From: a virus
UHGV virus genome: UHGV-0115609
DNA: 34,273 bases
Strand: one strand, 5' to 3'
Part shown: piece after piece, positions 1,618-30,744 of the stretch
How the letters are laid out: each line of letters begins with the position of its first letter
Position numbering within the stretch: position 1 is the first letter of the stretch
The notes under the pieces: model-generated
Database searches by the model: none
What the model saw: only the letters and a program-made list of their open reading frames with translations
Told to the model about the DNA's origin: nothing
Position numbers and translations under genes: made by a program

Positions 1618-1692
1618 CAAGTGCCGCTAAAATAAGTAGATGATTACTTATCTTTCTGTAAGAATACTTTCATCTGTTAGCTAGGAGTTGGT

Positions 1693-3013: not shown

Positions 3014-4332
3014 AAAAGTTGATCGCACTTAAGCATAAGCTGGACGAAATGAAAGCTATGGGAACCAATGCAAAAAAAGAGGCATTGGCCAACATGGATG
3101 ACTTTGAACAAAGCATGGTTTCATTGATGCTCAACCCTTTCATCCGTTTTGGGGTAAAGAAATACAAAGTGGCAGAGCCGCTTAGTGAGTCCGTCCCAAG
3201 TGACGAAAAAGCCATTGATGTACTGAATAAGCTGGCCTCTCGCGAGCTGACGGGGAACGCAGCAATAGCAGCTGTTGAGTCTATCGTGGCGTCAATGTGC
3301 GCCGATGGGCAGGACGTGTTCCGTCGTTTCCTCTTAAAAGACCCGAAAGCAGGTGTTGGGATTAGCCTATGCAACAAGGTTTTTGAAAATCCCATTCCGA
3401 AATTCGAGGTGCAGCTGGCGTCACCGTATAAAGAAAAAGGCGACAAATACCCCTTCAAGCCAAATCCTAAAGCAAAATGGCCGATGATTGGCAGTCTTAA
3501 GCTCGATGGTTTGCGAGTAATTTGCGAGGTTATTGTTGACGAGGAAGAGGTTAACTTCCTTTCTCGTACTGGTAATCCAATCACGTCTCTCGATCACCTA
3601 AAGCCAGCAATGCTCGAATTAGGCAAACTTTCAGGCCACAAACACATCTTCTTCGATGGTGAAGGAACAGCCGGTTCATTTAACCAGTCCGTATCTGCAT
3701 TGCGCAAAAAGAACGTGCAGGCAATTGGCGCTATTTATCATGTTTTCGACTTCTTCCTACCGGAATGGCGGGCACAGGCTAAATCCAAAGAGTATGCAAA
3801 GACAGGTATGAAGCTGAAAGAGCGCCTGGCTATTCTCGTGGCGTTGTTCAAAAACGATCGCAGTGAAGGCTACGCACAAGACATTCACCTGCATCCGTTC
3901 TATATCATCCATAGCCACGAAGATTTCATCGAACGCTTCATGAAACGCCTGGACGATAACGAAGAAGGGGAGATGGGCAAAGATCCGAACTCTGTTTACG
4001 AGTTTAAACGTACCCGCAGCTGGTGGAAGTTAAAAGACGAAGATTCAGAAGATGGTGAAATTATCGACTTTGAGCCGGGCGACCCGGACTCTGGTTTTGC
4101 CAACACACTTGGAAAAATTGTTATTCGTCTTGAAAACGGCGTCATCGTTCGTGCGAGCGGCATTAAGCATAAATATCTGGACGAGATCTGGAACAACAAA
4201 GAGAAGTACCGTGGTCGTATTGTCGAGGTTCATTGTCACGAGAAAACACCTGATGGCAGCTTACGCCACCCACGACTGAAATGGCCGCGTTGCTTACGCG
4301 ATACCGAAGATCGAATCGGAGATAAAGAATGA
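3010..4332 (+). CDS. ATP-dependent DNA ligase
   Basis: Adenylation motif I KxDGxR present as SLKLDGLRVI; size (440 aa) fits phage ATP-dependent ligases. Translationally coupled to neighbours (ATGA overlaps at both ends). Confidence 0.8.
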   Translation: MKKLIALKHKLDEMKAMGTNAKKEALANMDDFEQSMVSLMLNPFIRFGVKKYKVAEPLSESVPSDEKAIDVLNKLASRELTGNAAIAAVESIVASMCADGQDVFRRFLLKDPKAGVGISLCNKVFENPIPKFEVQLASPYKEKGDKYPFKPNPKAKWPMIGSLKLDGLRVICEVIVDEEEVNFLSRTGNPITSLDHLKPAMLELGKLSGHKHIFFDGEGTAGSFNQSVSALRKKNVQAIGAIYHVFDFFLPEWRAQAKSKEYAKTGMKLKERLAILVALFKNDRSEGYAQDIHLHPFYIIHSHEDFIERFMKRLDDNEEGEMGKDPNSVYEFKRTRSWWKLKDEDSEDGEIIDFEPGDPDSGFANTLGKIVIRLENGVIVRASGIKHKYLDEIWNNKEKYRGRIVEVHCHEKTPDGSLRHPRLKWPRCLRDTEDRIGDKE

Positions 4333-4544
4333 TCGTATTAAGTAAACGGGAGAAAGAAACGCTTCATGAAATAAGTAAGTGGCCGGAGTTCCCTGAGTAC
4401 TGGAAGCCTAAAACGCGAGCTAAGTTAGAGCGTTTAGGGTTGGTTGCAAACGTTTCTGAAACGCGGTGTTCGGCCAACTACCAGTTAACTGATAAAGGGA
4501 AAGTATTGCTAAAGCAATTAGTAGAATCAGGAGTGTTAAAATGA
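4329..4544 (+). CDS. Hypothetical small protein (71 aa)
   Basis: ORF overlapping the ligase stop (ATGA at 4329-4332) and the next small gene; coding-like composition. Confidence 0.5.
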   Translation: MIVLSKREKETLHEISKWPEFPEYWKPKTRAKLERLGLVANVSETRCSANYQLTDKGKVLLKQLVESGVLK

Positions 4545-4980: not shown

Positions 4981-5185
4981 AAATACAATGATAAGTATTT
5001 ACTTACTTATCTTTTATGTATAAGATGACTTTGTTTTCGTTGAGACGCGACTGTTTGAACTTAAATACAAGTGCAAACGAAGAAGTCTATCTGGCAGTAG
5101 CCTAATAAGCCAAACACCAGCGAGGTCAGTTTCCAGCCTCGTTACCGAAATGGGACACACTGAGCGAGTGTGATTGCAGAACGCA

Positions 5186-5209
5186 GGAGGGAACATTCAT
5201 GTTCCCTCC
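5186..5209 (+). other. Perfect hairpin GGAGGGAAC-ATTCAT-GTTCCCTCC (9-bp stem)
   Basis: Directly visible inverted repeat in the non-coding leader of the tRNA cluster; encloses a GGAGG...ATG arrangement. Confidence 0.5.
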
Positions 5210-5370
5210 GATGAAGTAACAGAATGGGCGGTTGGTATATTTTCAACTCCATATGACTCCCGGATTCTTAGCCACTGACCGCCCATCCTGTTACGTCATT
5301 TTGTTCAATTATGTCGTTTATACTGGGTTAAAAAGCGGCGACGTAGCCCGGCTGGTATGGTTAGCCAGCA

Positions 5371-5492
5371 CACAACGTTGAGGCCATTACATTTTTATCA
5401 ATTCTAAGGTTCTATTCACAGAGATACCGGCGAGCGTTGATATGTAACATGTTGGGCAAACATTCAATCGGAGTAGTGGCCTCAACGTTGTG
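5371..5492 (+). ncRNA. Long hairpin H1 (stem about 20 bp, loop about 82 nt) in the tRNA-cluster leader
   Basis: Left arm CACAACGTTGAGGCCATTAC (5371-5390) pairs with right arm GTAGTGGCCTCAACGTTGTG (5473-5492) with one G-U-type mismatch. Confidence 0.45.
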
Positions 5493-5758
5493 AAGACAGG
5501 ATTGTTGTGTAGGTTTAACCACTGTTGCCATTGGTGCCTGTTTTCACAACAAATGATTCCATACATCACATTGTATAAATTACAAAGTAGGTGCTGTCCT
5601 CAGAAACATCATCTACTTAAAGATTTTGCCTTCTACTATTGAGCGAAGTCGAAAGCGTCTGGCACTAACGAAAAGTGCAAGTAGCGGTGCGTTTCCTGGC
5701 AGAAACTAAACCGTCGCGATTGGCACTGTTGAGTAATAAATACTGGCAGTGCTGAATT

Positions 5759-5833
5759 GATGGTGTAGCTCAGCGGTAGAGCAGTTGGCTGTTAACCAAC
5801 TGGTCGGTGGTTCGAATCCACCCACCATCGCCA
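5759..5833 (+). tRNA. tRNA-Asn (anticodon GTT)
   Basis: Cloverleaf by hand: acceptor GATGGTG/CACCATC, D-arm GCTCAGCGGTAGAGC, anticodon stem GTTGG/CCAAC with loop CTGTTAA, T-arm GGTGG-TTCGAAT-CCACC, discriminator G, encoded CCA. Confidence 0.85.
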
Positions 5834-5838
5834 ATTTA

Positions 5839-5925
5839 GGGGAGTTAGTCCGTAGGGGCAGCGGGGTAGACTGTAAATCTACTGTCATTGCGACTCGGGT
5901 GGTTCGACTCCATCACTCCCCACCA
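5839..5925 (+). tRNA. tRNA-Tyr (anticodon GTA), type II with long variable arm
   Basis: Acceptor GGGGAGT/ACTCCCC, anticodon stem GTAGA/TCTAC with loop CTGTAAA, long variable arm, T-loop TTCGACT, encoded CCA. The anticodon arm closely resembles E. coli tRNA-Tyr. Confidence 0.75.
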
Positions 5926-5929
5926 AATT

Positions 5930-6005
5930 GCCGGTTTAGCTCAGTTGGTAGAGCGCCTGCCTTGTAAGCAGGATGTCAGCGGTTCGATCCCGTTAACCGG
6001 CACCA
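5930..6005 (+). tRNA. tRNA-Thr (anticodon TGT)
   Basis: Acceptor GCCGGTT/AACCGGC, D-arm AGCTCAGTTGGTAGAGC, anticodon stem CCTGC/GCAGG with loop CTTGTAA, T-loop TTCGATC, encoded CCA. Confidence 0.8.
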
Positions 6006-6006
6006 A

Positions 6007-6095
6007 CACAACAGGTAAGAGCATTGGGCGAATCGGCGATACTGACCCACAAGCCCGTAAATCGATAGAGTCAGACCAGTGCTCTTACCGTTGTG
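6007..6095 (+). ncRNA. Long hairpin H2 starting 1 nt after the tRNA-Thr CCA
   Basis: Left arm CACAACAGGTAAGAGCATTGG (6007-6027) pairs with right arm CCAGTGCTCTTACCGTTGTG (6076-6095), with one bulge and one mismatch. Confidence 0.45.
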
Positions 6096-6145
6096 AGGAA
6101 GTGCAGCTCTTTGAAGCAACCAGAAGATAAGCATCTGGCTTCACA

Positions 6146-6228
6146 ACACAACGATAAGATCATTACGGTTAATCGTCGTTCATGTGCACAATGACTGGTC
6201 GAAAGGTAGTGATCTTACCGTTGTGGTG
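6146..6228 (+). ncRNA. Long hairpin H3, paralogous to H2
   Basis: Left arm CACAACGATAAGATCATTAC pairs with right arm GGTAGTGATCTTACCGTTGTGGTG; shares the CACAAC...GTAAGA...CGTTGTG framework with H2. Confidence 0.4.
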
Positions 6229-6369
6229 GATTCGCAGACTGATGCGATAGCTTTCTTGGATGTTAGGGAAATGCGGCCGCAAATCTTCCCTTTCGCGAGC
6301 GGTGATCGTCCGTAGTCCTAATTGGCTGCACCGTATGCCGGAGATTCAGTACCGGCCACCACAACGGCC

Positions 6370-6456
6370 GGAGAGTAGGGAGCATGGTGCTCAAGCGGTC
6401 TTGAAAACCGTCCCATTGCGCAAGCGATGATGGTTCGATTCCATTACTCTCCGCCA
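6370..6456 (+). tRNA. tRNA-Ser (anticodon TGA), type II with long variable arm
   Basis: Acceptor GGAGAGT/ACTCTCC, anticodon stem GCGGT/ACCGT with loop CTTGAAA, long variable arm, T-loop TTCGATT, discriminator G, encoded CCA. Confidence 0.75.
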
Positions 6457-7480: not shown

Positions 7481-8584
7481 ATGAAAAATAGCTTTGACAG
7501 AGCACGCGCTGCGGAGAACACCTCAAAAGAGGCGATAGAGTATCTCGAAAGAGCATCTCAAATGCAGGCCGTTACGATCTCCCAGGTCAGCAATGACATG
7601 AGATTCTCGGACGCATTCATGTTATTCACTCGCTTATCTCTGCTGATAACCAGACGTCGGCCAGAGATCGCTGTTCATTGTATTTTGATACATGTTTTGC
7701 CGCACATTGCCGATGTAAAAGTAAGTGACATTAATAGGTTCATGGTGAACCAACTGGTCAACCCACTAATACTGGATGGCAAAATTGTTATGGGTCGCCG
7801 CGTTTTCTCTCTGATGAAGCAGTTCCTTAGCTGGTGCGCCTTCCAGGGGATGATAGACGTGTCACCGTTAAACGATATGTCACTTAACAAAGTTGCCGGT
7901 GGCGCAAAGCCCACACCTCGCGAGCGGAAGCTGACCGACGCAGAGGTATGGGTGTTCTGGAATATATGGGACTACTTCAATGTGTGTGCTGGTACAAAAT
8001 GGGCGGCCAGGCTATGTCTTGTATCCGCAAGACGACCTGACGAAGTACTGCGTGCTAAAAAAAGTGAGTTCAATCTTAAGCGTGGGGTTTGGAATCAAGG
8101 CAAGAGGAACAAATCTGCCCGTGAGCATTCTCTGCCTTTAAGCTCATTAATGCGCACTTGTATTGAAGAGTTGTTCGAATATGGTAAAGACAGCCAGTGG
8201 CTCGTGCCTTCGAATAAAAAAATCGGGAAAGACCTTCCTATGTCTAAAGTGGCAATAGCCCAGGCATTACGTCGTATTCTGGAACGACCAGAACTGATGG
8301 AGCTTGAGCCATTTACACCCCGAGATTTGCGCCGTACTGCGCGTAGTTACTTCCCAGCATTAGGCATAAGCCAGGAGGTATCACGTAAAATCATGAACCA
8401 CAGTCTTGAGGGGATAGATCGGGTCTACGACCGGCACGATTATATGGACGAGATGCGAGACGCCTTAGAAAGTTTCTCGACGTACATCGCATCAATCGTA
8501 GAGCAACCGGATTTAGACGAAATTGACCACAAATTTAAGGGAGATCGTCTATCAACAGAGCTTATTCGTGTAAATTTTTCATAG
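7481..8584 (+). CDS. Tyrosine site-specific recombinase (phage integrase family)
   Basis: C-terminal catalytic region with the conserved pattern: TPRDLRRTARSY (box I Arg), IMNHSLEGIDRVYDRHDY (His-x-x-Arg and Tyr nucleophile); size 367 aa. Confidence 0.8.
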   Translation: MKNSFDRARAAENTSKEAIEYLERASQMQAVTISQVSNDMRFSDAFMLFTRLSLLITRRRPEIAVHCILIHVLPHIADVKVSDINRFMVNQLVNPLILDGKIVMGRRVFSLMKQFLSWCAFQGMIDVSPLNDMSLNKVAGGAKPTPRERKLTDAEVWVFWNIWDYFNVCAGTKWAARLCLVSARRPDEVLRAKKSEFNLKRGVWNQGKRNKSAREHSLPLSSLMRTCIEELFEYGKDSQWLVPSNKKIGKDLPMSKVAIAQALRRILERPELMELEPFTPRDLRRTARSYFPALGISQEVSRKIMNHSLEGIDRVYDRHDYMDEMRDALESFSTYIASIVEQPDLDEIDHKFKGDRLSTELIRVNFS

Positions 8585-8965
8585 AGACTTTATGGCCTCA
8601 ACAACCTTTTGTGATGCGCCTTTCTCTTTACCGAATCGCTCGTTATATGCAGCAAGAACCTGTTTTTCGTCCTCGTTAAGAGGAGCAGTGCCTTCTTTGT
8701 ATAAAAATGCTGCGAGTTCGGGTTGGCGTTCTTCCAGCACCATCATCATAAGACGACTTGGCTCAATACCCAGTGCCAGCGCCAGCGGACGAACCTTATC
8801 GATAGGCAAAGGAATTTTGCCGCTTTTAATTAAAGAAAGGTTGTTGGCGTTTTTATACCCAATTGTTTTGGCTATCTGGGCCTGGCTCATAGGTGAGGAT
8901 TCAATCAACCCTGCGATAAAAGCAGCGTAGCGACTTTCTATAAATTCAATCTTGTTATCAGACAT
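8579..8965 (-). CDS. HTH (XRE/Cro-CI-type) transcriptional regulator
   Basis: Helix-turn-helix signature MSQAQIAKTIGYKNANNLSLIKSGK; convergent with the recombinase gene and divergent from the ORF at 9217 across an AT-rich intergenic region. Confidence 0.7.
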   Translation of the reverse strand: MSDNKIEFIESRYAAFIAGLIESSPMSQAQIAKTIGYKNANNLSLIKSGKIPLPIDKVRPLALALGIEPSRLMMMVLEERQPELAAFLYKEGTAPLNEDEKQVLAAYNERFGKEKGASQKVVEAIKSL

Positions 8966-9216
8966 GGTTACAACCTTTGCGCGTTCAATTCTCTCTGGTA
9001 AGTGCTTACCGATATTACATCAAAGGTTAGGGTTGTAAAGCTATTATCATTTTTTTCGATAGGCACTTAAAAGACCGGTTAAAGGCCATTGCACGGAGAA
9101 AAATTAGCCAAAAATAGGTAAGAAAATCAACTTGCATATGATATGAATGTATTCAGTATTGATACAAATTTTAGTAGTATTCCTTACCATAGTATAAGTT
9201 AGAATGGACTGATTGA

Positions 9217-11636: not shown

Positions 11637-11731
11637 ACAAAACAGCCTTAACGATAAGTAACCACTTACGATAGATAATGATATATTTATATAAGAAGTT
11701 GAACGCTCATTAGAAAACAAAGGAAAAACGC

Positions 11732-16686: not shown

Positions 16687-16957
16687 AGAATTATGGCGCT
16701 TGTTGAGGAAGTCACTCCTCTTACGCACTTTGTTTTGCCATGCCGGCAGTTAGCTTCTGCCTTTGACTATTCATGCGGCAACCCCGCATTTCGCCACAAT
16801 GGGCAATTCACTTTTATGGAATAAACTGGCCGTTGTGTCGATTTAATTAGCATGGCCTTACCATGCTAATTTATTCAACTTGTACAATCCTACAAATCTA
16901 TCCACTCAGGCTTACACCGTCTTCGTTATTGTAGAAATGAGGATCATCAGCGTTGAA

Positions 16958-17173
16958 TCAGCTTAGAGCAACGACATTTGCTGCTGCTGGGCCTTTAGCA
17001 CCATTCTCGATAGAGAATTCGACCTGCTGGCCTTCTTCCAAAGTGCGGAAATTATTACTCTGAATTGCCGAAAAATGTACAAAAACATCTTTACTGCCAT
17101 CAGCAGGAGAAATAAAGCCAAAGCCTTTATCAGAGTTAAACCATTTTACTAAACCAGTCATTTTATTAGACAT
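16958..17173 (-). CDS. Cold-shock protein, CspA family (71 aa)
   Basis: [38 protein letters not shown]... carries the RNP1/RNP2 motifs (KGFGFI, VFVHF) and is near-colinear with E. coli CspA. Start at ATG 17173 with RBS AAGAAGG; the longer ORF-track start is rejected. Confidence 0.9.
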
Positions 17174-17502
17174 AGATATTACCTTCTTAATTTTGTGAGC
17201 CACATAGTGCGGCGAGAATTTGATCTGTATAGATTGGGACTTACTTAGGCACTTAAGGAGGAGACTCACGAAGAAGGGAAATCAGAAGATAACACTGAAC
17301 TGAGACTGCTTTACTAAAACTGCTTACATAAGGTCTGTCTTGCAAACCAACGATGCTATTAACGCATACCCCTTCTTTTCATGCAACCTTTATTTTTCAA
17401 AGATAACTAATTTTTGTCACCATTGGTTTAGTAAACGTTAACGAACCAGACGATGCCAGACACCTTTACAGAGAACAGATGCCCGCCAATTGGCGGGCAT
17501 CA

Positions 17503-18351: not shown

Positions 18352-18605
18352 TCGCCTCCGATAATAGTATTCTATTCACAGTGTTGACATCTGTCAACGG
18401 CGACTGAATTTCATCCGTTCATGCCACACCACCATCCATCTCATGTATGTGACCTAAAGATGGTCAGCACAGCTTACCAAAATAAGACAACTAATTATCT
18501 TCGGTGATCTCAATATCTTCCCCTGAACAAAGTTGACATGACGCCATAAACCCGTTCTCTGTTTGATATAATTGATACAGATTTTATAAGTAGGAACCTA
18601 TTAGA

Positions 18606-19037
18606 GTGAACACTGATATTTTTTCTAAAATCATGGCCGATCTGGAGTTCGACCGCGACAACCTTGAGGAAGTATGGCGTAAACAGCCACGGCTTTTAAT
18701 GGAGTATGGGTCAAAACTAGCGCAGGCAGATCGAGATGTCGCAGAGGCAAAACTTAACCTTGAAGCTGTTGAAGCAAAGCTATACGACACAGAGCGTAAG
18801 AACTTGAGTATGAACGGCATTAAGTTCAACGAGTCTGTACTGGACGCTAAGGTTAAAACAAACCCACAGTATCTGTCTAAACGGCAGAAGTTGGATGAAG
18901 CACGGCACATCGCAGACATATACAAACATGCTGTCGCCGCCTTTTCGCATCGCCGAGACATGATCGTTCAGGCGTCAAAGATGGCCATCGTTGAATTAGA
19001 GCGATTAGGCTCTGAACGCTTTATTACTCCCCGTTGA
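18606..19037 (+). CDS. Hypothetical protein (143 aa), possibly a UvsY-like recombination mediator
   Basis: GTG start with AGGAAC upstream. The gene sits directly before the gp32-like SSB, FEN and RecA genes; the role is suggested by position and size only. Confidence 0.45.
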   Translation: MNTDIFSKIMADLEFDRDNLEEVWRKQPRLLMEYGSKLAQADRDVAEAKLNLEAVEAKLYDTERKNLSMNGIKFNESVLDAKVKTNPQYLSKRQKLDEARHIADIYKHAVAAFSHRRDMIVQASKMAIVELERLGSERFITPR

Positions 19038-19154
19038 TTTTTGATAGATAATAAGTAAGTACTGATCTATCATTTAACAGCTCGAAAGAGCCACGAATGA
19101 ACGAAAGCCCAACGCGCATAGCGCCATCGGCCAAATCACAACAAGGAGAAACAC

Positions 19155-21456: not shown

Positions 21457-23796
21457 ATGGCAAAAGGAAAATCCGCACTGGCACTTGCTCTGAAAAAGAA
21501 AATCGGTAGCAACGACGAAATTCAGAAAGTAACTCATTGGATTGACACAGGCTTTCCTCCGTTAAACAAAGCTATTTCCGGTCGTTACGATGGCGGTTTC
21601 CCATGTGGTCGTATCGTAGAAGTATTCGGGCCACCAAGCGCGGGGAAATGTGTTACCGCAGACACCATGCTGCTGACGGAGCGTGGAATGGTAACAGTGA
21701 AAGAACTGTTTGAGATTGAGGGGCACAAAGCAACATGCACTACTCGCGATGTAGAGCATAACGTTGGACTCATCAATGAAAATGGCGTGATAGAGAAGAC
21801 CTCACACCTGACATGGAACAACCGTCGCAAATTCAAGCGTATTAAGCTGGCATCAGGCGGTTATATCGAGGCTACGTTCCGTCACCCAATCCGTGTGGTT
21901 GACGACTTAGGTAATGTCGTCTGGCGACATGCTGAAAAAATCAGTGTAGGCGACACGATTCCTTCAATGGTTGGCACACATCAATTCGGCGATCAGCACC
22001 TGGATGCCAATATCGCAAAACTGATGGGCTATTTAATTGCTGACGGATACGTGGCCTCTGAAAATTCAGTGAATTTTTCTAACACAGATCCTTTCATCAA
22101 GGATGAGTACTACCGCCTCATTTCGCTGGTATCAGACAAGATGCCAGTTACGAGAAAACATAACGGCTCGGAAGACCATGTGCTGTTTAGCAAAGAGGTG
22201 CGTTCGCTGCTTTTTAAAGAGTATGGTCTGGAGTATGAGAAAGCTGCTGGCAAGCAGGTTCCGTTGAGTGTGCGTCGCGCCAATAGCGAGGCTCAAATTG
22301 CATTCCTTCGCGGCTACTTTGAGCTGGAATGCCACGTCAATGATGGTCGCTGCATTGAGGTTGTGAGCGCGAGTGGGCTGCTGCTACAGCAAATTCGCCT
22401 CATGCTCCTGAATCTGGGGATTACGTCAACTATCTCTGAAAAACACGTCGCGGGTTATGAAAATACATATTACCGGCTGTCATTCAGTGGCTCTAATTAC
22501 GACCTTTTTCTGTCAACGATTGGTTTCGAATCTCCGGCACGTTTATCAGTGGCAACCAAACGGGACATTGGTTTTGACCGCACTTACTCAGGCTATGTTC
22601 CGCACATCAGCGGCTTAGTGAAATCACTCTACGAGTCGCTCACCAAGACCACCCGTGAAGACTACGCTCTGGTAGACCACGTTATTGGCCGCGGCGATCG
22701 TGTCGGAATAGACAAACTGCGAGAAATCTATGTCTCCTTCATTGGCAGAAAGAATCGTTTTAACGAGCATCTGTTTGCACAACTGGCAGCGGTAATTGGC
22801 TCTAACTTGTTCTACGACGAAGTCGTGGCTATTGAGGAAGGTGAAGCACCAACGTTCGACGTAGCGATGCCGGAAACACACTCTTTCTGGTCTAACGGGA
22901 TTATCAGCCACAACACATTCCTTGCAACAGCAGCGATGATCTCCGCTCAAAAACAAGATGGTCTGGCGGTATTCCTCGATCATGAAAACAGTTTTGACGT
23001 TGGCCTGGCTGTAGCCAATGGCCTGAACGCAGATGAGGATGACGGTCAGTGGGTATACAAGCAGCCAGATACCTTCGAAGACTCTGTAGAGTTGATCGGC
23101 ACAATACTTAAATTGGTTCGTGATGAAGAGCTTATCCCCGAATCAGCACCTATCTGTATCGTGGCTGACTCTCTTGCGTCTATGGTTCCGAACTCCAAAG
23201 CCGAGAAGTTCGAAAAGATGGCTGAAGGCACTGCCAAAGACAAAGATCAGCTAAACATGAACGACAATACGGCACTGGCTCGTGCGACGAGTGCGAACTT
23301 CCCTACTCTGGCTTTGTGGGCACGCAAATACAACGCCTGCATCATCTTCTTGAATCAGGTTCGCACAAAAATCGGTGTAATGTTTGGCGACCCTACTACG
23401 TCGCCAGGTGGAGATTCACCGAAGTTTTACGCTTCTGTGCGCATCCGTCTCGGTGCATCGGTGATGAAGGATGGGAAAGAGAAGATCGGCCAGGACGTAG
23501 GCGCAGAATGCATCAAAAACAAAGTTGCACCACCGTATGGCAAATGCACCTGGAAATTCTACTTCGATCCTACTCGTGGCCTCGACGTTATCGAGTCGCT
23601 CGTCGAGTACATGCTGGAAGAAGGATACCTGCCAAAGAACGCCAGCGGGCGAGTTGAAATTGGTGACAAGAAATACACCAAATCGCAGATCGTCGACATG
23701 TATCGGGAGAAGCCATTAGCAGAAATCATTGCTGCGTTACAGGCGATAGATGACCGACGAGAGAAGACATCACCAACAGAAGAACTAGAAGATTAA
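21457..23796 (+). CDS. recA: RecA-family recombinase precursor containing an intein
   Basis: N-extein ...PCGRIVEVFGPPSAGK and C-extein TFLATAAM...AVFLDHENSFD...QPDTFEDS...IFLNQVRTKIGVMFGDPTTSPGGDSPKFYASVRIRL are near-colinear with bacterial RecA. The P-loop GPPSAGK/T is split by a 422-aa insertion. Confidence 0.9.
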   Translation: MAKGKSALALALKKKIGSNDEIQKVTHWIDTGFPPLNKAISGRYDGGFPCGRIVEVFGPPSAGKCVTADTMLLTERGMVTVKELFEIEGHKATCTTRDVEHNVGLINENGVIEKTSHLTWNNRRKFKRIKLASGGYIEATFRHPIRVVDDLGNVVWRHAEKISVGDTIPSMVGTHQFGDQHLDANIAKLMGYLIADGYVASENSVNFSNTDPFIKDEYYRLISLVSDKMPVTRKHNGSEDHVLFSKEVRSLLFKEYGLEYEKAAGKQVPLSVRRANSEAQIAFLRGYFELECHVNDGRCIEVVSASGLLLQQIRLMLLNLGITSTISEKHVAGYENTYYRLSFSGSNYDLFLSTIGFESPARLSVATKRDIGFDRTYSGYVPHISGLVKSLYESLTKTTREDYALVDHVIGRGDRVGIDKLREIYVSFIGRKNRFNEHLFAQLAAVIGSNLFYDEVVAIEEGEAPTFDVAMPETHSFWSNGIISHNTFLATAAMISAQKQDGLAVFLDHENSFDVGLAVANGLNADEDDGQWVYKQPDTFEDSVELIGTILKLVRDEELIPESAPICIVADSLASMVPNSKAEKFEKMAEGTAKDKDQLNMNDNTALARATSANFPTLALWARKYNACIIFLNQVRTKIGVMFGDPTTSPGGDSPKFYASVRIRLGASVMKDGKEKIGQDVGAECIKNKVAPPYGKCTWKFYFDPTRGLDVIESLVEYMLEEGYLPKNASGRVEIGDKKYTKSQIVDMYREKPLAEIIAALQAIDDRREKTSPTEELED
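21649..22914 (+). mobile_element. Intein (class 1) with LAGLIDADG homing-endonuclease domain, inserted in the RecA Walker A motif
   Basis: Begins with Cys (CVTADTMLL, block A), has a TxxH block B (ATFRHP) and ends ...HSFWSNGIISHN followed by Thr (+1). Internal LAGLIDADG motifs KLMGYLIADGYV and FLRGYFELECHV. Removing it restores GPPSAGKT. Confidence 0.85.
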
Positions 23797-23827: not shown

Positions 23828-23889
23828 TATGTTGAAAATGTATAAGCACTTACTTATCATTAGCACACAATAACCACATAGGAAAACAC

Positions 23890-24078
23890 ATGATCAAACT
23901 CTATCTTATGGCAGTAGTTACAGGTCTATCTGTAGTTTTCATCTACTGTTTGCTGGTTCCGTCGCTGATCTCTGCTAAAAGCGACATTGCCGTAATGCTT
24001 GGAATCATCGTTGCTTTTGGTGCTCCTGTGATCGGGTTTATTGCAGGTCGTAAGTTTCTAAAGTCACTCATCAATTAG
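23890..24078 (+). CDS. Small membrane protein (62 aa), possible NfeD-like partner of the downstream SPFH protein
   Basis: Two hydrophobic helices (LMAVVTGLSVVFIYCLLV, VMLGIIVAFGAPVIGFIAG); located 15 nt upstream of the SPFH gene. Confidence 0.5.
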   Translation: MIKLYLMAVVTGLSVVFIYCLLVPSLISAKSDIAVMLGIIVAFGAPVIGFIAGRKFLKSLIN

Positions 24079-25441: not shown

Positions 25442-25496
25442 TCGCCTATTCATAACTAACAAAATAAGTAAACACTAACCACAAAAGGAAAAACAC

Positions 25497-25772
25497 ATGA
25501 GAGTTTTAGTTCGAATCGTTACCAGCACTGTCTATGACGTGTTTCCGCTTTTTATGGTCAAAGCCGATGGCCTTAACGACGAAGAAACTGACGCGCTGAT
25601 CCAGCGTATTCTCGTTGGATATACAGGTTATGACGCTGATTCAGTGATGGTTGATGATGATGGTGTTTGTTGGCATAACGGCAACTGTTGGTACGTAGAA
25701 GAGACTCAACAAATCAGTGATGAAGATGCCGCACATCTTGAGCGTATTTTAAGCATCAGCACTTTTGAGTGA
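25497..25772 (+). CDS. Hypothetical protein (91 aa)
   Basis: ORF preceded by the conserved ACCACAAAAGGAAAAACAC initiation context. Confidence 0.55.
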   Translation: MRVLVRIVTSTVYDVFPLFMVKADGLNDEETDALIQRILVGYTGYDADSVMVDDDGVCWHNGNCWYVEETQQISDEDAAHLERILSISTFE

Positions 25773-25811
25773 GTTTACAGTAAAATTTATATAAGTTAGT
25801 ATCTACCTATC

Positions 25812-25991
25812 ATGAAGATTTTTATTGAATACTTGTTACTCATCGTTTCAATAGCTTTTGTCATCGACTGCATTTTCACCGGTGTCATTCGTAAAGTCTT
25901 TTCCCCGGTGAACGACGTAGTCATAAACGCTTTGGCTATCGTGCTCGTATTTAATTCAGCATTTGATGTAATCAAAGAGGTGGCAGCATGA
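25812..25991 (+). CDS. Small membrane protein (59 aa; below the ORF-track cutoff)
   Basis: Hand translation MKIFIEYLLLIVSIAFVIDCIFTGVIRKVFSPVNDVVINALAIVLVFNSAFDVIKEVAA; its stop overlaps the next start (ATGA). Confidence 0.4.
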   Translation: MKIFIEYLLLIVSIAFVIDCIFTGVIRKVFSPVNDVVINALAIVLVFNSAFDVIKEVAA

Positions 25992-26543: not shown

Positions 26544-27025
26544 ACCACTGCGGTGAGTAGCCAGCTCACCGCATTCGTATCAGCTCATTATCCACTGTGG
26601 TCTGCAGTCCTCTCTTCCTACATATCTGCTAACCACTGTAGCGAGTAGACAGCCTTTCATTCGCATCAAACAACCACTATGGTGAGTATTGGAGTGAGAT
26701 GTCCAGCGGGTATCCACTATGGTGAGTAAGCCTTTGCTGTTTTCAGTGGATATCCACTCGCCACAGTGGATACGCTCAAAGATGAGGGCGACAACAACCA
26801 CTATAGACAGTAAATTTTCCAAGATACCCAGTGACCACTAACCTCGCAGCCCTTGTTTCATCAGTGTTAGTGATCACTAACATTTAATTCAGTATTTGCA
26901 TTCTACTGCCTACAGTGGTTATCAACAGATAACGATACTCACTATAGTGGATAGCGAATTACAGATATAAGTAAGGCTCACTACAGTGGATAGTGAGCCT
27001 TACTACTAACTACAGTGGTTGGGCT
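26544..27025. repeat. Iteron array downstream of repA (incA-like copy-control locus): at least 11 copies of a CCACT(A/G)T(A/G)G / C(T/C)A(T/C)AGTGG(A/T)T core in both orientations
   Basis: Visible repeats: AACCACTGCGGTGAGTAG, ATCCACTGTGG, AACCACTGTAGCGAGTAG, AACCACTATGGTGAGTA (twice), CAGTGGATA, CACAGTGGATAC, AACCACTATAGACAG, CTACAGTGGTTATC, CACTATAGTGGATAG, CACTACAGTGGATAG, CTACAGTGGTTGGG. Also contains the 16-bp perfect palindrome GTTAGTGATCACTAAC (26866-26881). Confidence 0.8.
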
Positions 27026-28079
27026 ATTTGCGAGTCTTTGCCTTGCGCAACTCTTCGAGAAGCGCCAGTTCTTCTTTACTCAACATGACCATTTTGCCTT
27101 CTTTTTCGTCAGGCACAACGTCGATAATGTCATCTTGATTCTCATCTGGGAGGCTATATTCCGTCTCATCATTATCGATTTTTGTTGATATTTGTGCCTG
27201 GCGTAACTTTGGCCGCCTATAGTGGATGATGAAGTAGACCGAGTTTCCGCGCTTAACTTCCGTGTAATCGAGATATCCTATCTCTCGCAGCTGTTCCATA
27301 GCCTTTCTTACCGTCGCATTCTGAGTAATAGTGCGACTTGTCAGATTAAGTCTGGCGCGTAAACGAGCTAGTGATATTGGTGCCGGATCAGGCGGCAAAC
27401 TTTCAATAAAAGTATAAAGCGCCTGAGCGGATTCTTTTCTTGAGAGTTCGTTTATAGCCCGGAGTTGCAGAAGAACCTTTTTGTCGAACTGGTAGAGTTC
27501 GAAAATCTTGGGATCTGCTTTCAGTTCGACCGTATCGTGCTTGACACTATATTTTGCCGTTTGCACAAGATGCGTTACGTAAAACTCATCAGAGCCTTTG
27601 CTACGGAACGAGATGGTATTTGTGGCAATACGGCTTAGCGAACTGTCCAGGCGTTTGCGTAACTTCGCTGATGACCTGGCGGTCGGAATGCCACACAGCC
27701 TTACAAACTCAACGAACGGCAACGTGACAGTATCGCCAACGACCTTGTGTTTGGCAAACGCGTGGATTATTCCCACCCACGTTTTAAAGTCGTTATCCAT
27801 ATCAAGCCGAAGGCCAGAGATCCTTATGTCTTCGTACCCTTCGGCTTTTGCCAGAGACAGCTGTTTGAGTTCAGCAGAGGCATCCATAGAGACCATTTGC
27901 CCCTTTCTTCCTCTGGATGTCGATTTCAGCGTCGGAACGAAGAGGCCCAGACGCATCAAAGCAACAGGCTGAACAGTGTTATTAGTGTTAGGAACCAACG
28001 TAACAACTTCGCCTGTCTTTTTATCTGTTTCTGAAAATGCTTCAACGATCGCTATGTTTTTATTGCCGTTTTCGCTCAT
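27024..28079 (-). CDS. repA: Replication initiator RepA (P1/IncFIB RepA-like iteron-binding protein)
   Basis: Segments [59 protein letters not shown] and [27 protein letters not shown] match my recollection of the P1 RepA family; the gene is bracketed by iteron arrays. Confidence 0.85.
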
Positions 28080-28122: not shown

Positions 28123-28243
28123 GATTACAGTGGATAGTAGCACTCATCACAGCGGTTATCCTACCGTCTATAGTGGTTTTTCTCCTCTCTATAGTGGTTG
28201 CTTTGCTCCCTATAGTGGATTATTCGCTCTCTATAGTGGATAT
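28123..28243. repeat. Six direct iterons (consensus CTCTATAGTGG(A/T)T) at 21-22 bp spacing, abutting the repA start (incC-like, probable autoregulated promoter/origin iterons)
   Basis: AGTGG/AGCGG cores at 28129, 28151, 28172, 28193, 28214 and 28235 (spacings 22, 21, 21, 21, 21), about two helical turns apart as in iteron replicons. Confidence 0.85.
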
Positions 28244-28289
28244 CGATCATGTCTGAAGGCAGATGGCGCAACGGTTTGAGGTGGGCGGG

Positions 28290-28408
28290 GATCTTATTGG
28301 GTCTTTATGGGTCTCTTTGGTTCTCTTTGTGATCTGAATTACTGGATCGGGCCTGTGGATAAAATCAGAGGATTTCAAGAACAGGTAACTCTACTCTTCT
28401 GTGGATAT
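28290..28408. promoter_or_regulatory. Origin-like module B: GATC sites and degenerate (G)GGTCTCTTTG repeats plus DnaA boxes
   Basis: GATC at 28290, 28331 and 28345; three tandem GGTCT/GTTCT-containing 11-mers (28297-28330); perfect DnaA box TGTGGATAA (28354-28362, complement of TTATCCACA) and near-perfect TGTGGATAT (28400-28408). Confidence 0.7.
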
Positions 28409-28519
28409 TTAAGGACATAAGAATCATGACTAAGAGTAGAGTTTAAAATATATCTATGTATATCAGTATGTTAATGAAGAATTAAGTCATTAAGTTATCC
28501 ATAAAAGACAATGTGCTCT

Positions 28520-28625
28520 ACTCTCTACAGTGGATATATACAGCTCTCCAGAGTGGTTGTTTTACTCTTCATAGCGGTTATTCAGCTCTCTACAGAGGTT
28601 TCTTTGCTCTCCATAGTGGATGGCA
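28520..28625. repeat. Second set of five direct iterons at 21-23 bp spacing
   Basis: Cores AGTGG 28529, AGTGG 28552, AGCGG 28573, AGAGG 28594, AGTGG 28615, each preceded by CTCT(A/C)(C/T); separated from the first set by an AT-rich stretch (28410-28510). Confidence 0.8.
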
Positions 28626-28662
28626 ACACCCTTTCAGACCAGTAACCGCAACGGCTAGAGGC

Positions 28663-28734
28663 GATCGGGGATCTCTTTGGATCTTCTATTTGATCTTACT
28701 TGGGATCTCTTATTTGGATCTATCCAGTGGATAA
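28663..28734. promoter_or_regulatory. Origin-like module A: cluster of six GATC (Dam) sites plus a DnaA-like box
   Basis: GATC at 28663, 28670, 28680, 28692, 28704 and 28717 within 58 bp, embedded in (T/G)GGATCT repeats; AGTGGATAA (28726-28734) is one mismatch from a DnaA box. Confidence 0.75.
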
Positions 28735-28821
28735 CTGGGATAAGTAAAACAGGCAAATGCAGATTAAGGTATGCCTAATGAGTTATCGTAGCATCGGCCA
28801 ATAACTACTGAAAAAACGATT

Positions 28822-30518: not shown

Positions 30519-30744
30519 CGTCAGTTCTCCTTTTTCGTTTGGTTGTCATCATTAAGTGACTGCGATTATAGAGTGGCTTGTAACATCTAGAAGTCTTTGC
30601 TGTCCATAAAAATAGGTATTCACTTACCTATGAATTTGCCATAATCATGTGTCTGTGAACATTCTTAATGGCCGTGTTATCTGGATTGTTCGCCTCTCAA
30701 ACACACTTAATATCTGTATCAAAATAACCACAAAGGAAAAACAC

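What the first reader, a model, noticed from the sequence alone, without database searches (positions are those of the whole stretch)
4988..5012. Recurrent palindromic ATAAGTA...TACTTAT motif in intergenic regions
GATAAGTA paired with an inverted TACTTATC a few bases away occurs at 1632-1651 (ATAAGTA-GATGAT-TACTTAT), 4991-5010 (ATAAGTA-TTTACT-TACTTAT), 19047-19071 (GATAGATAATAAGTAAGTACTGATCTATC) and 23842-23858 (ATAAGCACTTACTTATC). A looser version lies at 11654-11675. All lie upstream of genes. This looks like the operator of a dimeric regulator or a phage-specific promoter class.
Basis: seen in the sequence. Interest (0 to 1): 0.5.

Follow-up and report, generated by a model that had tools for sequence, protein, structure and literature searches.

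The report
Dispersed repressor-operator palindrome in phage-plasmid
The repeated palindrome is real: it is a conserved 14-18 bp DNA site found in about thirty gene-free gaps of SSU5-like phage-plasmids, where it overlaps promoter-like sequences and most likely serves as the docking site of a phage repressor that keeps the virus silent while it lives as a plasmid.

Summary
The window is 99% identical to part of Escherichia phage Cyrano (pLF82), an SSU5-like phage-plasmid. The window has 10 intergenic sites within 2 mismatches, against about 1 expected.

Genome-wide, ATAAGTAA is the most enriched intergenic 8-mer in Cyrano and second in SSU5. Sites lie at orthologous positions across E. coli, Salmonella and Klebsiella relatives and are more conserved than their flanks.

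Non-Watson-Crick arm pairs show no strand bias, so this is a DNA site, not an RNA hairpin. Sites overlap sigma-70-like promoters on the gene strand at varying registers. In the published LF82 lysogen RNA-seq the downstream genes sit at background. That fits a repressor operator better than an activator box.

Its own predicted promoter is followed by an invariant GGTAAG-YR-CTTACC copy, it is expressed in the lysogen, and its recognition helix is invariant. Binding is untested, spacing is oddly variable, and SSU5 lacks this HTH yet keeps the sites. No description was found in the literature searched.

The parts
4990..5011 (.). Strongest site: GATAAGTA-TTTACT-TACTTATC (8-6-8). It contains the perfect 14-mer TAAGTATTTACTTA (4992-5005) and a second register at 4996-5009.
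   Evidence: orthologous site in SSU5 at 41774
5019..5026 (+). -10-like TATAAGAT, starting 9 nt after the last TACTTA arm. Inferred promoter reading into a non-coding leader and the tRNA cluster.
   Evidence: read; same spacing in SSU5; tRNAs. Inference only.
1632..1652 (.). Site ATAAGTA-GATGAT-TACTTATC (N6 arms). The N2 register 1633-1646 has 2 mismatches.
   Evidence: SSU5 orthologue at 38179
1657..1665 (+). TGTAAGAAT, an extended -10-like element 8-9 nt after the right arm, upstream of ORF 1693-2475.
   Evidence: The same TGTAAGAAT follows orthologous and paralogous sites (Cyrano 84621, SSU5 38191 and 84187). Inference only.
8997..9010 (.). GGTAAGTGCTTACC palindrome (gap-0 class), covering about -5 to +9 of the predicted promoter of the HTH gene.
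   Evidence: invariant block in E. coli, Y. pestis pMT1, Citrobacter and Klebsiella
9012..9039 (-). Predicted sigma-70 promoter of the HTH gene: TTTACA-16-TAATAT.
   Evidence: both hexamers invariant
8579..8965 (-). XRE/HTH_19-type regulator (CYRAN_45 homologue), the candidate binder and lysogeny repressor.
   Evidence: Pfam/PHROG; about 10x background in the lysogen; 865 plasmid records; recognition helix invariant
11653..11668 (.). Site GATAAGTAACCACTTA, between the cobT-like and cobalamin-synthetase-like genes. Overlaps a possible -35 (TTACGA-18-TATAAG).
   Evidence: Arm conservation 0.96 against 0.79 for flanks and 0.77 for the central NN, across 50 distinct relatives.
18587..18600 (.). 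Site TAAGTAGGAACCTA, overlapping TATAAG (-10-like) upstream of the UvsY-like gene 18606-19037.
19043..19073 (+). Site TAAGTAAGTACTGA (19052-19065) inside the outer repeat GATAGAT..ATCTATC. It lies in the spacer of predicted promoter TAGATA-17-TATCAT, upstream of the gp32-like SSB.
   Evidence: conserved in 38 distinct upstream regions
23832..23860 (+). Predicted promoter TTGAAA-17-TATCAT, with site TAAGCACTTACTTA (23843-23856) filling the spacer and reaching the -10. Lies after the RecA terminator and upstream of ORF 23890-24078.
   Evidence: downstream gene CYRAN_56 at the read floor in the lysogen
25465..25478 (.). Weaker site TAAGTAAACACTAA, 32 nt before ORF 25497-25772.
25774..25809 (+). 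Predicted promoter TTTACA-17-TAGTAT, with site TTAGTATCTACCTA (25796-25809) over the -10 and start point, directly before ORF 25812-25991.
   Evidence: Arm conservation 0.99 against 0.82 for flanks. CYRAN_60 at the read floor in the lysogen.
30613..30630 (.). Site TAGGTATTCACTTA plus a CCTA unit, 9 nt before CATAAT (30640-30645), upstream of the SbcD-like gene.
28739..28746 (.). Isolated GATAAGTA half-site next to the last repA iteron. Membership doubtful.

Best explanation
The motif is a family-wide operator. It is a dyad-symmetric double-stranded DNA site with core TA(A/G)GTA-NN-TAC(T/C)TA, often extended to GATAAGTA..TACTTATC and often with extra 4-nt-phased arm copies. It is dispersed over about 25-30 intergenic regions of SSU5-like phage-plasmids, ten of them in this window.

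Each copy lies on or next to a host sigma-70-type promoter, variously over the -35, the spacer, the -10 or the start point. A dimeric phage repressor bound there would exclude RNA polymerase. That would keep replication, recombination, nucleotide-metabolism and structural operons silent while the element is maintained as a plasmid, an architecture like the dispersed C1 operators of phage P1.

The most likely binder is the XRE-type HTH protein at 8579-8965, which would also autoregulate through the copy at 8997-9010.

Shown: existence, enrichment, conservation, DNA-level symmetry, co-location with predicted promoters, silence of the downstream genes in a lysogen.

Inferred: protein binding, repression, and the identity of the binder.
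For: - Enrichment far beyond chance, almost exclusively intergenic.
- Orthologous sites retained in SSU5 and in IMG/VR relatives with 77-100% SSB identity.
- Arms more conserved than flanks at all six sites tested, and more than the central NN at three of them (0.96 vs 0.77 NN and 0.79 flanks; 0.99 vs 0.82 and 0.82).
- Non-Watson-Crick arm pairs split 12 G-T to 12 A-C, and hairpin energy averages -1.6 kcal/mol. This points to duplex DNA rather than RNA.
- 8 of 25 Cyrano intergenic sites overlap a strict gene-strand sigma-70 prediction, against 5.2% of intergenic 14-mers (p = 2.5e-5). There is no enrichment on the opposite strand, and the registers vary. Window examples are at 19045-19073, 23832-23860 and 25774-25802.
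- Near-consensus promoters carrying the site drive genes that sit at the read floor in the LF82 lysogen (CYRAN_56 and CYRAN_60 = 5.0). None of the genes more than 5x above background has a site directly upstream (PMC9928086 S1 Table).
- HTH gene: the block TTTACA..TAATAT-C-(R)GTAAG(Y)ACTTACC is invariant across four genera, in an intergenic region with 70% mean column identity.
- The HTH is about 10x background in the lysogen, near-core in 865 plasmid records, and its recognition helix GYKNxNxLSLIKxGxIPLP is invariant at 56-66% overall identity.
Against: - There are no binding or transcription-start data.
- Arm spacing varies (gap 0, 4 or 8 between AAGT and ACTT). A rigid dimer should not tolerate this. 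The HTH's own site is the gap-0 class, while most sites are gap 4.
- SSU5 lacks the HTH and integrase yet has as many intact sites as Cyrano. Recent loss is possible but unproven: the nearest plasmids are only 92-96% identical at that junction.
- Several sites in the late operon sit between a stop codon and a terminator, or 25-30 nt before a start codon, where no promoter is evident.
- CYRAN_34, downstream of window site 1, is 4.5x background in the lysogen.
- The promoter predictions are consensus matches only.
Confidence: 0.55

Rival explanations
1. Activator box of a phage-specific promoter class, in the manner of P1 Lpa or T4 MotA. A phage activator binds the palindrome in place of a -35 element and recruits host RNA polymerase to -10-only promoters.
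For: - P1 late promoters carry AAGTnACTT followed after 4 nt by a -10 (read from AF234172). The half-sites AAGT/ACTT are the same as here.
- A subset of sites has the last arm a fixed 8-9 nt before a -10-like hexamer and no obvious -35: window 1632-1665, 4990-5026 and 30613-30645; Cyrano 63200 and 84621.
- The family shares some genes with P1, such as Cra and TciA/B.
Against: - Only about 5-6 of 25 sites have that geometry. Others sit in the spacer, on the -10 or on +1 of promoters whose good -35 boxes are themselves conserved (TTGAAA, TTTACA).
- Spacing between arms differs from P1 (gap 4, 0 or 8 against 1).
- No Lpa homologue is present (tblastn best E = 0.66).
- Sites occur in early and late modules alike, which is unusual for one activator.
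Confidence: 0.2
2. Operator for a different protein: another phage regulator or a host factor, not the HTH at 8579-8965. Phage candidates are the lysogen-expressed 92-aa protein CYRAN_117/SSU5_123, encoded outside the window, and the 71-aa winged-helix-like protein at 4329-4544.
For: - SSU5 keeps the sites without the HTH.
- CYRAN_117 is core (788 plasmid records and all 12 SSU5-like phage records) and 12x background in the lysogen. It lies in the operon that diverges from the site at Cyrano 105112.
- The 71-aa protein is family-specific and models as a MarR/AspA-like winged helix (TM 0.6-0.7).
- Tandem 4-nt-phased arms with variable spacing recall the repeat arrays bound by ribbon-helix-helix proteins (my own knowledge).
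- The half-site ATAAGTA fits the NarL heptamer AKRRGTA (my own knowledge).
Against: - The ribbon-helix-helix reading of CYRAN_117 rests on inspection only. There is no Pfam hit, the AF2 model has pLDDT 54, and hhalign against Arc and Mnt gives nothing.
- The 71-aa protein is silent in the lysogen.
- The NarL 7-2-7 arrangement has the arms in the opposite orientation.
- The RcsB box differs at the symmetric positions 5 and 10.
- The invariant copy at the HTH promoter is most simply autoregulation.
Confidence: 0.15
3. Not a protein site. Instead an RNA hairpin (processing or terminator signal), or a gene-boundary sequence. The boundary sequence could act as a three-frame stop (TAAGTAAGTAA) or as a recombination linker that promotes module shuffling.
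For: - Many copies overlap or directly follow stop codons.
- TAGGTAAGTAA and TAAGTAAGTAA give stops in all three frames.
- Some copies adjoin terminator hairpins.
Against: - There is no strand bias in wobble-type pairs, and the stems are very weak.
- The right arm TACTTA carries no stop codon on the gene strand, yet it is as conserved as the left arm.
- Stems are AT-rich and lack a proper U tract.
- Promoter co-location is specific to the gene strand.
Confidence: 0.07

Closest known systems
Phage P1 C1 repressor and its dispersed operators (more than 17 sites controlling many operons of a plasmid prophage)
   Same: Both elements are plasmid prophages of about 100 kb with many transcription units. 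In both, one short site is scattered through the genome and overlaps promoters of replication, recombination and other lytic genes. In P1 the record annotates operators directly on promoters (Oref, Ossb, OrepL, Olpa).
   Different: C1 operators are asymmetric 17-mers (ATTGCTCTAATAAATTT type, my own knowledge), whereas this site is a palindrome. C1 is an unrelated 283-aa protein. Here sites also lie inside the structural-gene block, which in P1 is controlled through Lpa.
P1 Lpa-dependent late promoters (-22 box AAGTnACTT plus -10)
   Same: Both have an inverted repeat with AAGT/ACTT half-sites, dispersed and placed inside the promoter region.
   Different: In P1 the gap between half-sites is 1 nt and the distance to the -10 is fixed at 4 nt, with no -35. 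Here the gap is 4, 0 or 8 nt and the position is variable. Several sites have good -35 boxes, and there is no Lpa homologue.
14-18 bp operators of Cro/CI-type (XRE) HTH repressors of phages 434, P22 and lambda
   Same: The size is similar (14 bp core). Both have dyad symmetry with conserved outer bases and a variable centre, overlap promoter cores, and include an autoregulatory copy at the repressor's own promoter.
   Different: Lambdoid operators are clustered at OL and OR, whereas these are spread over about 100 kb. Arm spacing here is variable, with tandem 4-nt-phased arm copies.
RK2 KorA/KorB global regulon (palindromic operators dispersed over a plasmid)
   Same: A few short palindromes coordinate many operons of a large plasmid.
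   Different: KorB is a ParB-family CTPase. The two ParB_N proteins of Cyrano are at or near background in the lysogen (5.0 and 9.5 against a median of 9.8), so they are unlikely binders. No KorA or KorB homology was found.
NarL/NarP 7-2-7 sites and the RcsB box (GerE/LuxR-type HTH sites in the host)
   Same: ATAAGTA fits the NarL heptamer AKRRGTA. The 14-bp frame TAAG-N6-CTTA matches the RcsB box outline. Both comparisons are from my own knowledge.
   Different: In 7-2-7 sites the TAC ends face outward (TACYYMT-NN-AKRRGTA), whereas here they face inward. RcsB requires GA..TC at positions 4-5 and 10-11, where this site has GT..AC.

Membership tests
Operator of a dimeric HTH repressor | Dyad-symmetric duplex DNA site with conserved arms and a less constrained centre | tested here: met
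   Position counts. Arms more conserved than the central NN at three of six sites: 0.96 vs 0.77, 0.99 vs 0.82 and 0.90 vs 0.80. At the other three the NN is as conserved as the arms or more so. Symmetric distribution of G-T and A-C deviations.
Operator of a dimeric HTH repressor | Overlap with promoter core elements of the controlled genes | tested here: inconclusive
   Strong enrichment of gene-strand sigma-70 predictions over the sites (32% vs 5.2%, p = 2.5e-5). These are consensus matches, no transcription-start data exist, and several sites have no evident promoter.
Operator of a dimeric HTH repressor | Autoregulatory copy at the repressor's own promoter | tested here: met
   GGTAAGTGCTTACC at 8997-9010, directly after the predicted -10 of the HTH gene. 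The block is invariant in four genera. It is of the gap-0 spacing class.
Operator of a dimeric HTH repressor | Controlled genes silent when the repressor is expressed | tested here: met
   LF82 lysogen RNA-seq: site-associated genes have a median near background and two are at the floor, while the HTH is at about 96 against a median of 9.8. This is correlative only.
Operator of a dimeric HTH repressor | Direct sequence-specific binding by the protein, with derepression on its loss | not testable with these tools
   Needs EMSA or footprinting, ChIP-seq, and a knockout.
Operator of a dimeric HTH repressor | Fixed half-site spacing | tested here: not met
   Gaps of 0, 4 and 8 nt between AAGT and ACTT all occur at conserved sites.
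P1 Lpa-type late promoter | 9-bp box AAGTnACTT at a fixed 4 nt from a -10, with no -35 | tested here: not met
   P1 boxes read. Here the gap and position differ, and -35 boxes are present at 23832 and 25774.
P1 Lpa-type late promoter | An Lpa homologue is encoded | tested here: not met
   tblastn of P1 Lpa against Cyrano, SSU5 and the window gives a best E of 0.66. The pairwise alignment is weak.
Intrinsic terminator or structured RNA element | Stable stem with strand-consistent pairing (G-U tolerated on the transcribed strand only) and a U tract | tested here: not met
   12 G-T against 12 A-C pairs, and a mean MFE of -1.6 kcal/mol. Not called by the terminator scan. No Rfam hit at the sites.
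NarL/NarP 7-2-7 site | TACYYMT-NN-AKRRGTA orientation of the heptamers | tested here: not met
   All sites have the inverse order, AKRRGTA-NN-TACYYMT. The consensus itself is recalled from my own knowledge.

The most novel reading that the evidence does not exclude
A single small XRE-type repressor directly silences an entire phage-plasmid of about 100 kb, late structural genes included, through about 30 dispersed operators. These operators are built from 4-nt-phased TAAG/CTTA units and are read at several spacings. This regulatory code would be shared by hundreds of clinically relevant plasmids, including S. Typhi pHCM2, Y. pestis pMT1 and Klebsiella and E. coli phage-plasmids. SSU5 itself would be a repressor-less lytic derivative that still carries the operators.
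Probability: 0.3. Interest if true: 0.55.

Novelty: new member of a known kind. Interest (0 to 1): 0.45.

Why it matters
SSU5-like phage-plasmids are common in Enterobacterales. About 800 plasmid records carry the linked core genes, among them pHCM2 and pMT1, and the family can carry resistance genes.

Their lysis-lysogeny control is essentially uncharacterised, and I found no description of this motif in the literature library. A defined operator sequence, a map of about 30 controlled sites and a named candidate repressor together give a directly testable model. The model covers how these elements stay silent as plasmids and how they are induced, and it offers a handle for annotating promoters across the family.

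It is a new instance of a familiar principle (a repressor regulon), not a new principle.

Tried and rejected
- Using 'SSU5 lacks the HTH, so the HTH cannot be the binder': I first held this view and then withdrew it. The HTH and integrase module proved near-core in 865 plasmid records, including pHCM2 and pMT1, and carries its own invariant site.
- ParB/KorB-like binder: the two ParB_N proteins are at or near background in the lysogen.
- FljA-like CYRAN_114 (PF03614): no site at its promoter, and a different known biology.
- P1 Lpa homology: none found.
- Pfam and PHROG scans of about 30 small proteins gave no further regulator.
- CYRAN_117 as a ribbon-helix-helix protein: a PDB profile search, hhalign against Arc and Mnt, and an AF2 monomer model were all uninformative.
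- Acinetobacter HTH homologue (48% identity): it has a different recognition helix and no TAAGT/ACTTA palindrome upstream, so it is uninformative.
- Rfam scan: nothing at the sites.
- Literature: no paper on SSU5 or pHCM2 operators, and no hit for the motif strings. One 2026 preprint could not be opened.
- k-mer discovery on single 21-kb relatives was dominated by repA iterons and had to be replaced by targeted scans.

Full report
**Identity of the window.** Megablast places the window in Escherichia phage Cyrano (OV696614.1, 108,379 bp) at 99.3% identity. More distant relatives are Salmonella phage SSU5 and Klebsiella phage-plasmids at 78-80% identity. Cyrano is pLF82 of E. coli LF82, an SSU5-like phage-plasmid (PMC9928086). 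The window covers the replication, recombination and repA part of the genome, with nearly all genes on the + strand.

Aligning every intergenic TAAGTA shows that the preferred partner lies 2 nt away. The consensus is TAAGTA-A-n-TACTTA: A at +8 in 42 of 51 copies and T at +7 in 34 of 51. The core is therefore the 14-mer TAAGTANNTACTTA. Purines usually flank it on the left and pyrimidines on the right, giving GATAAGTA..TACTTATC.

In the window this 14-mer has 4 hits at <=1 mismatch (0.08 expected). At <=2 mismatches it has 11 hits (1.05 expected), ten of them intergenic.

**Genome-wide picture.** I assembled Cyrano and SSU5 from annotated records.
- In Cyrano, ATAAGTAA/TTACTTAT is the most enriched intergenic 8-mer: 18 copies in 14.5 kb of intergenic DNA against 2 in 94 kb of coding DNA (p about 1e-15).
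- In SSU5 it ranks second.
- The 14-mer at <=1 mismatch occurs 14 times in Cyrano (0.17 expected) and 19 times in SSU5 (0.10 expected).
- About 25 distinct intergenic loci carry it in Cyrano, in every module, including between structural genes.

Sites occupy orthologous intergenic positions in SSU5. The same holds in 80 IMG/VR relatives fetched through the gp32-like SSB, which share 77-100% protein identity. Six window sites were aligned across 21-50 distinct relatives. In all six the twelve specified positions are more conserved than the 50-nt flanks. In three of the six they are also more conserved than the central NN, for example 0.96 against 0.79 flanks and 0.77 NN at 11655, and 0.99 against 0.82 and 0.82 at 25796.

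**DNA or RNA?** Deviations from perfect pairing between the arms are 12 G-T and 12 A-C. They would be wobble pairs on opposite strands equally often. The hairpins are very weak, with a mean of -1.6 kcal/mol. The terminator scan does not call them and Rfam finds nothing there. The half-site is best written TA(A/G)GTA on either arm independently. This is what a protein reading duplex DNA would give.

**Relation to promoters.** The consensus scan finds few + strand promoter-like sites in the window, and three of them sit on motif copies:
- TAGATA-17-TATCAT at 19045-19073.
- TTGAAA-17-TATCAT at 23832-23860.
- TTTACA-17-TAGTAT at 25774-25802.

Using the same strict rule on the whole Cyrano genome, 8 of 25 intergenic sites are overlapped by a gene-strand prediction, against 5.2% of all intergenic 14-mers (p = 2.5e-5). 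The opposite strand shows no enrichment (4% against 5.3%), although the motif itself is palindromic.

The register differs from site to site: over the -35, in the spacer, on the -10, or at +1. Other sites have the last arm 8-9 nt before a -10-like hexamer, often TGTAAGAAT (window 1632-1665, 4990-5026, 30613-30645). The -35 boxes TTGAAA and TTTACA are themselves invariant in relatives. Complete promoters with the palindrome laid across them at varying registers are what operators look like. An activator box would sit at a fixed position.

**Expression.** In the published LF82 lysogen RNA-seq (S1 Table of PMC9928086) the Cyrano median is 9.8.
- Genes directly downstream of sites lie at about that level. 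CYRAN_56 and CYRAN_60, behind the two best-looking promoters, are at the floor (5.0) and rise strongly in macrophage samples.
- None of the genes more than 5x above background has a site directly upstream.
- Exceptions exist: CYRAN_34 is at 44, and the tRNA region downstream of site 4990-5011 gives reads.

That argument does not hold.

The pair is present in 9 of 12 SSU5-like phage records. It is also present in 865 plasmid records, with the same genus distribution as a core gene of the family. These include S. Typhi pHCM2 and Y. pestis pMT1. SSU5 is the exception.

The HTH gene's predicted promoter (minus strand, TTTACA 9039-9034, 16 nt, TAATAT 9017-9012) is followed two bases later by GGTAAGTGCTTACC at 8997-9010. 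In an alignment of this divergent region from E. coli, Y. pestis, Citrobacter and Klebsiella (70% mean column identity) one block is invariant. That block comprises the -35, the -10 and (R)GTAAG(Y)ACTTACC. This is a textbook autoregulatory layout with the same half-sites.

The protein matches HTH_19 and a PHROG 'transcriptional regulator' family. It is about 10x background in the lysogen. Its helix-turn-helix GYKNxNxLSLIKxGxIPLP is invariant although orthologues are only 56-66% identical overall.

I therefore regard it as the best candidate, with two reservations. Its own site is of the gap-0 class, while most sites are gap 4. SSU5 retains undecayed sites without it, and the nearest plasmids are 92-96% identical at the deletion junction, so the age of the loss is unknown.

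Other candidates were examined:
- CYRAN_117/SSU5_123 (92 aa). It is core and 12x background in the lysogen, and it lies in the operon diverging from a site. It looks ribbon-helix-helix-like to the eye, but nothing confirms this.
- The 71-aa protein at 4329-4544. It is family-specific with a winged-helix-like model, but silent in the lysogen.
- The two ParB_N proteins. They are at or near background in the lysogen.

**Comparison with known systems.** The architecture works like P1's C1 network: many operators dispersed over a plasmid prophage (P1 record). The site itself is a palindrome, unlike C1's asymmetric operator.

The half-sites AAGT/ACTT are those of the P1 Lpa late-promoter box AAGTnACTT. 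However, the spacing, the fixed geometry and the Lpa protein are all missing here.

The size and symmetry resemble 434- and P22-type operators. ATAAGTA fits the NarL heptamer, but the arms are in the opposite orientation to 7-2-7 sites. The RcsB box differs at the symmetric positions 5 and 10. These last three comparisons rest on my own knowledge.

**Novelty.** Searches for SSU5 or pHCM2 with promoter, operator or repressor, and for the motif strings, found no description. The library is limited and one recent preprint was not readable. I class the finding as a new member of a known kind: a repressor regulon motif for an important but little-studied phage-plasmid family.

**What remains unexplained.**
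- The three spacing classes and the 4-nt-phased tandem arms.
- Sites lying between stop codons and terminators, or immediately before ribosome-binding sites, in the late operon.
- Intact sites in the HTH-less SSU5.

Noticed in passing
window 21457-23796 (+): The RecA-like gene is 779 aa and contains an intein with a LAGLIDADG homing endonuclease (Intein_splicing covering residues 73-486, LAGLIDADG_3 at 279-356). The SSU5 homologue is annotated as about 358 aa, without it.
   Followed up: partly
window 16933-17351 (-): A full-length cspA 5'UTR thermoregulator (Rfam RF01766, 188 bits) precedes a cold-shock-domain protein (16958-17269). This stretch is unannotated in the Cyrano record.
   Followed up: partly
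window 5012-6456 (+): Site 4990-5011 is followed by about 740 nt without a convincing ORF, conserved with SSU5 at its start (ttttcgttgagacgcgactg). Then come four tRNA genes (Asn, Tyr, Thr, Ser). This may be a long leader or an unannotated RNA.
   Followed up: no
window 26589-26992 and 28129-28733: Eleven copies of AGTGGATA (12 in the window against 0.76 expected), often next to CCACTGTAG, flank repA (27024-28079, minus strand). They are presumably iterons. Relatives of other clades carry different iterons (ACCGCTGACAGCATA type).
   Followed up: partly
window 19066-19154 (+): The roughly 90-nt leader before the gp32-like SSB gene is highly conserved in 38 distinct relatives and is GC-rich with dyads. 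It could be a translational autoregulation site, as in T4 gene 32.
   Followed up: no
Cyrano record 31176, 78100 and 108365 (outside the window): Three copies of a palindrome of about 55 bp, CCTGCTTCTGTATATA..TATATACAGAAGCAGG, with a TAAGTA-like centre. They sit at module borders, one just upstream of the small terminase gene.
   Followed up: no
many start regions, e.g. window 11706-11731, 23877-23889, 25484-25496: Purine-rich GAAAACA(A/C) or AGGAAAAACAC occurs directly before start codons. GAAAACAA has 15 intergenic copies in Cyrano against 0.8 expected. It is probably a shared ribosome-binding or leader motif.
   Followed up: no
Cyrano record 100780-101301 (outside the window): The protein annotated 'transcriptional regulator' CYRAN_114 is a full-length FljA homologue (PF03614, repressor of phase-1 flagellin, E = 1e-80). 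This hints at host flagellin control by the phage-plasmid.
   Followed up: no
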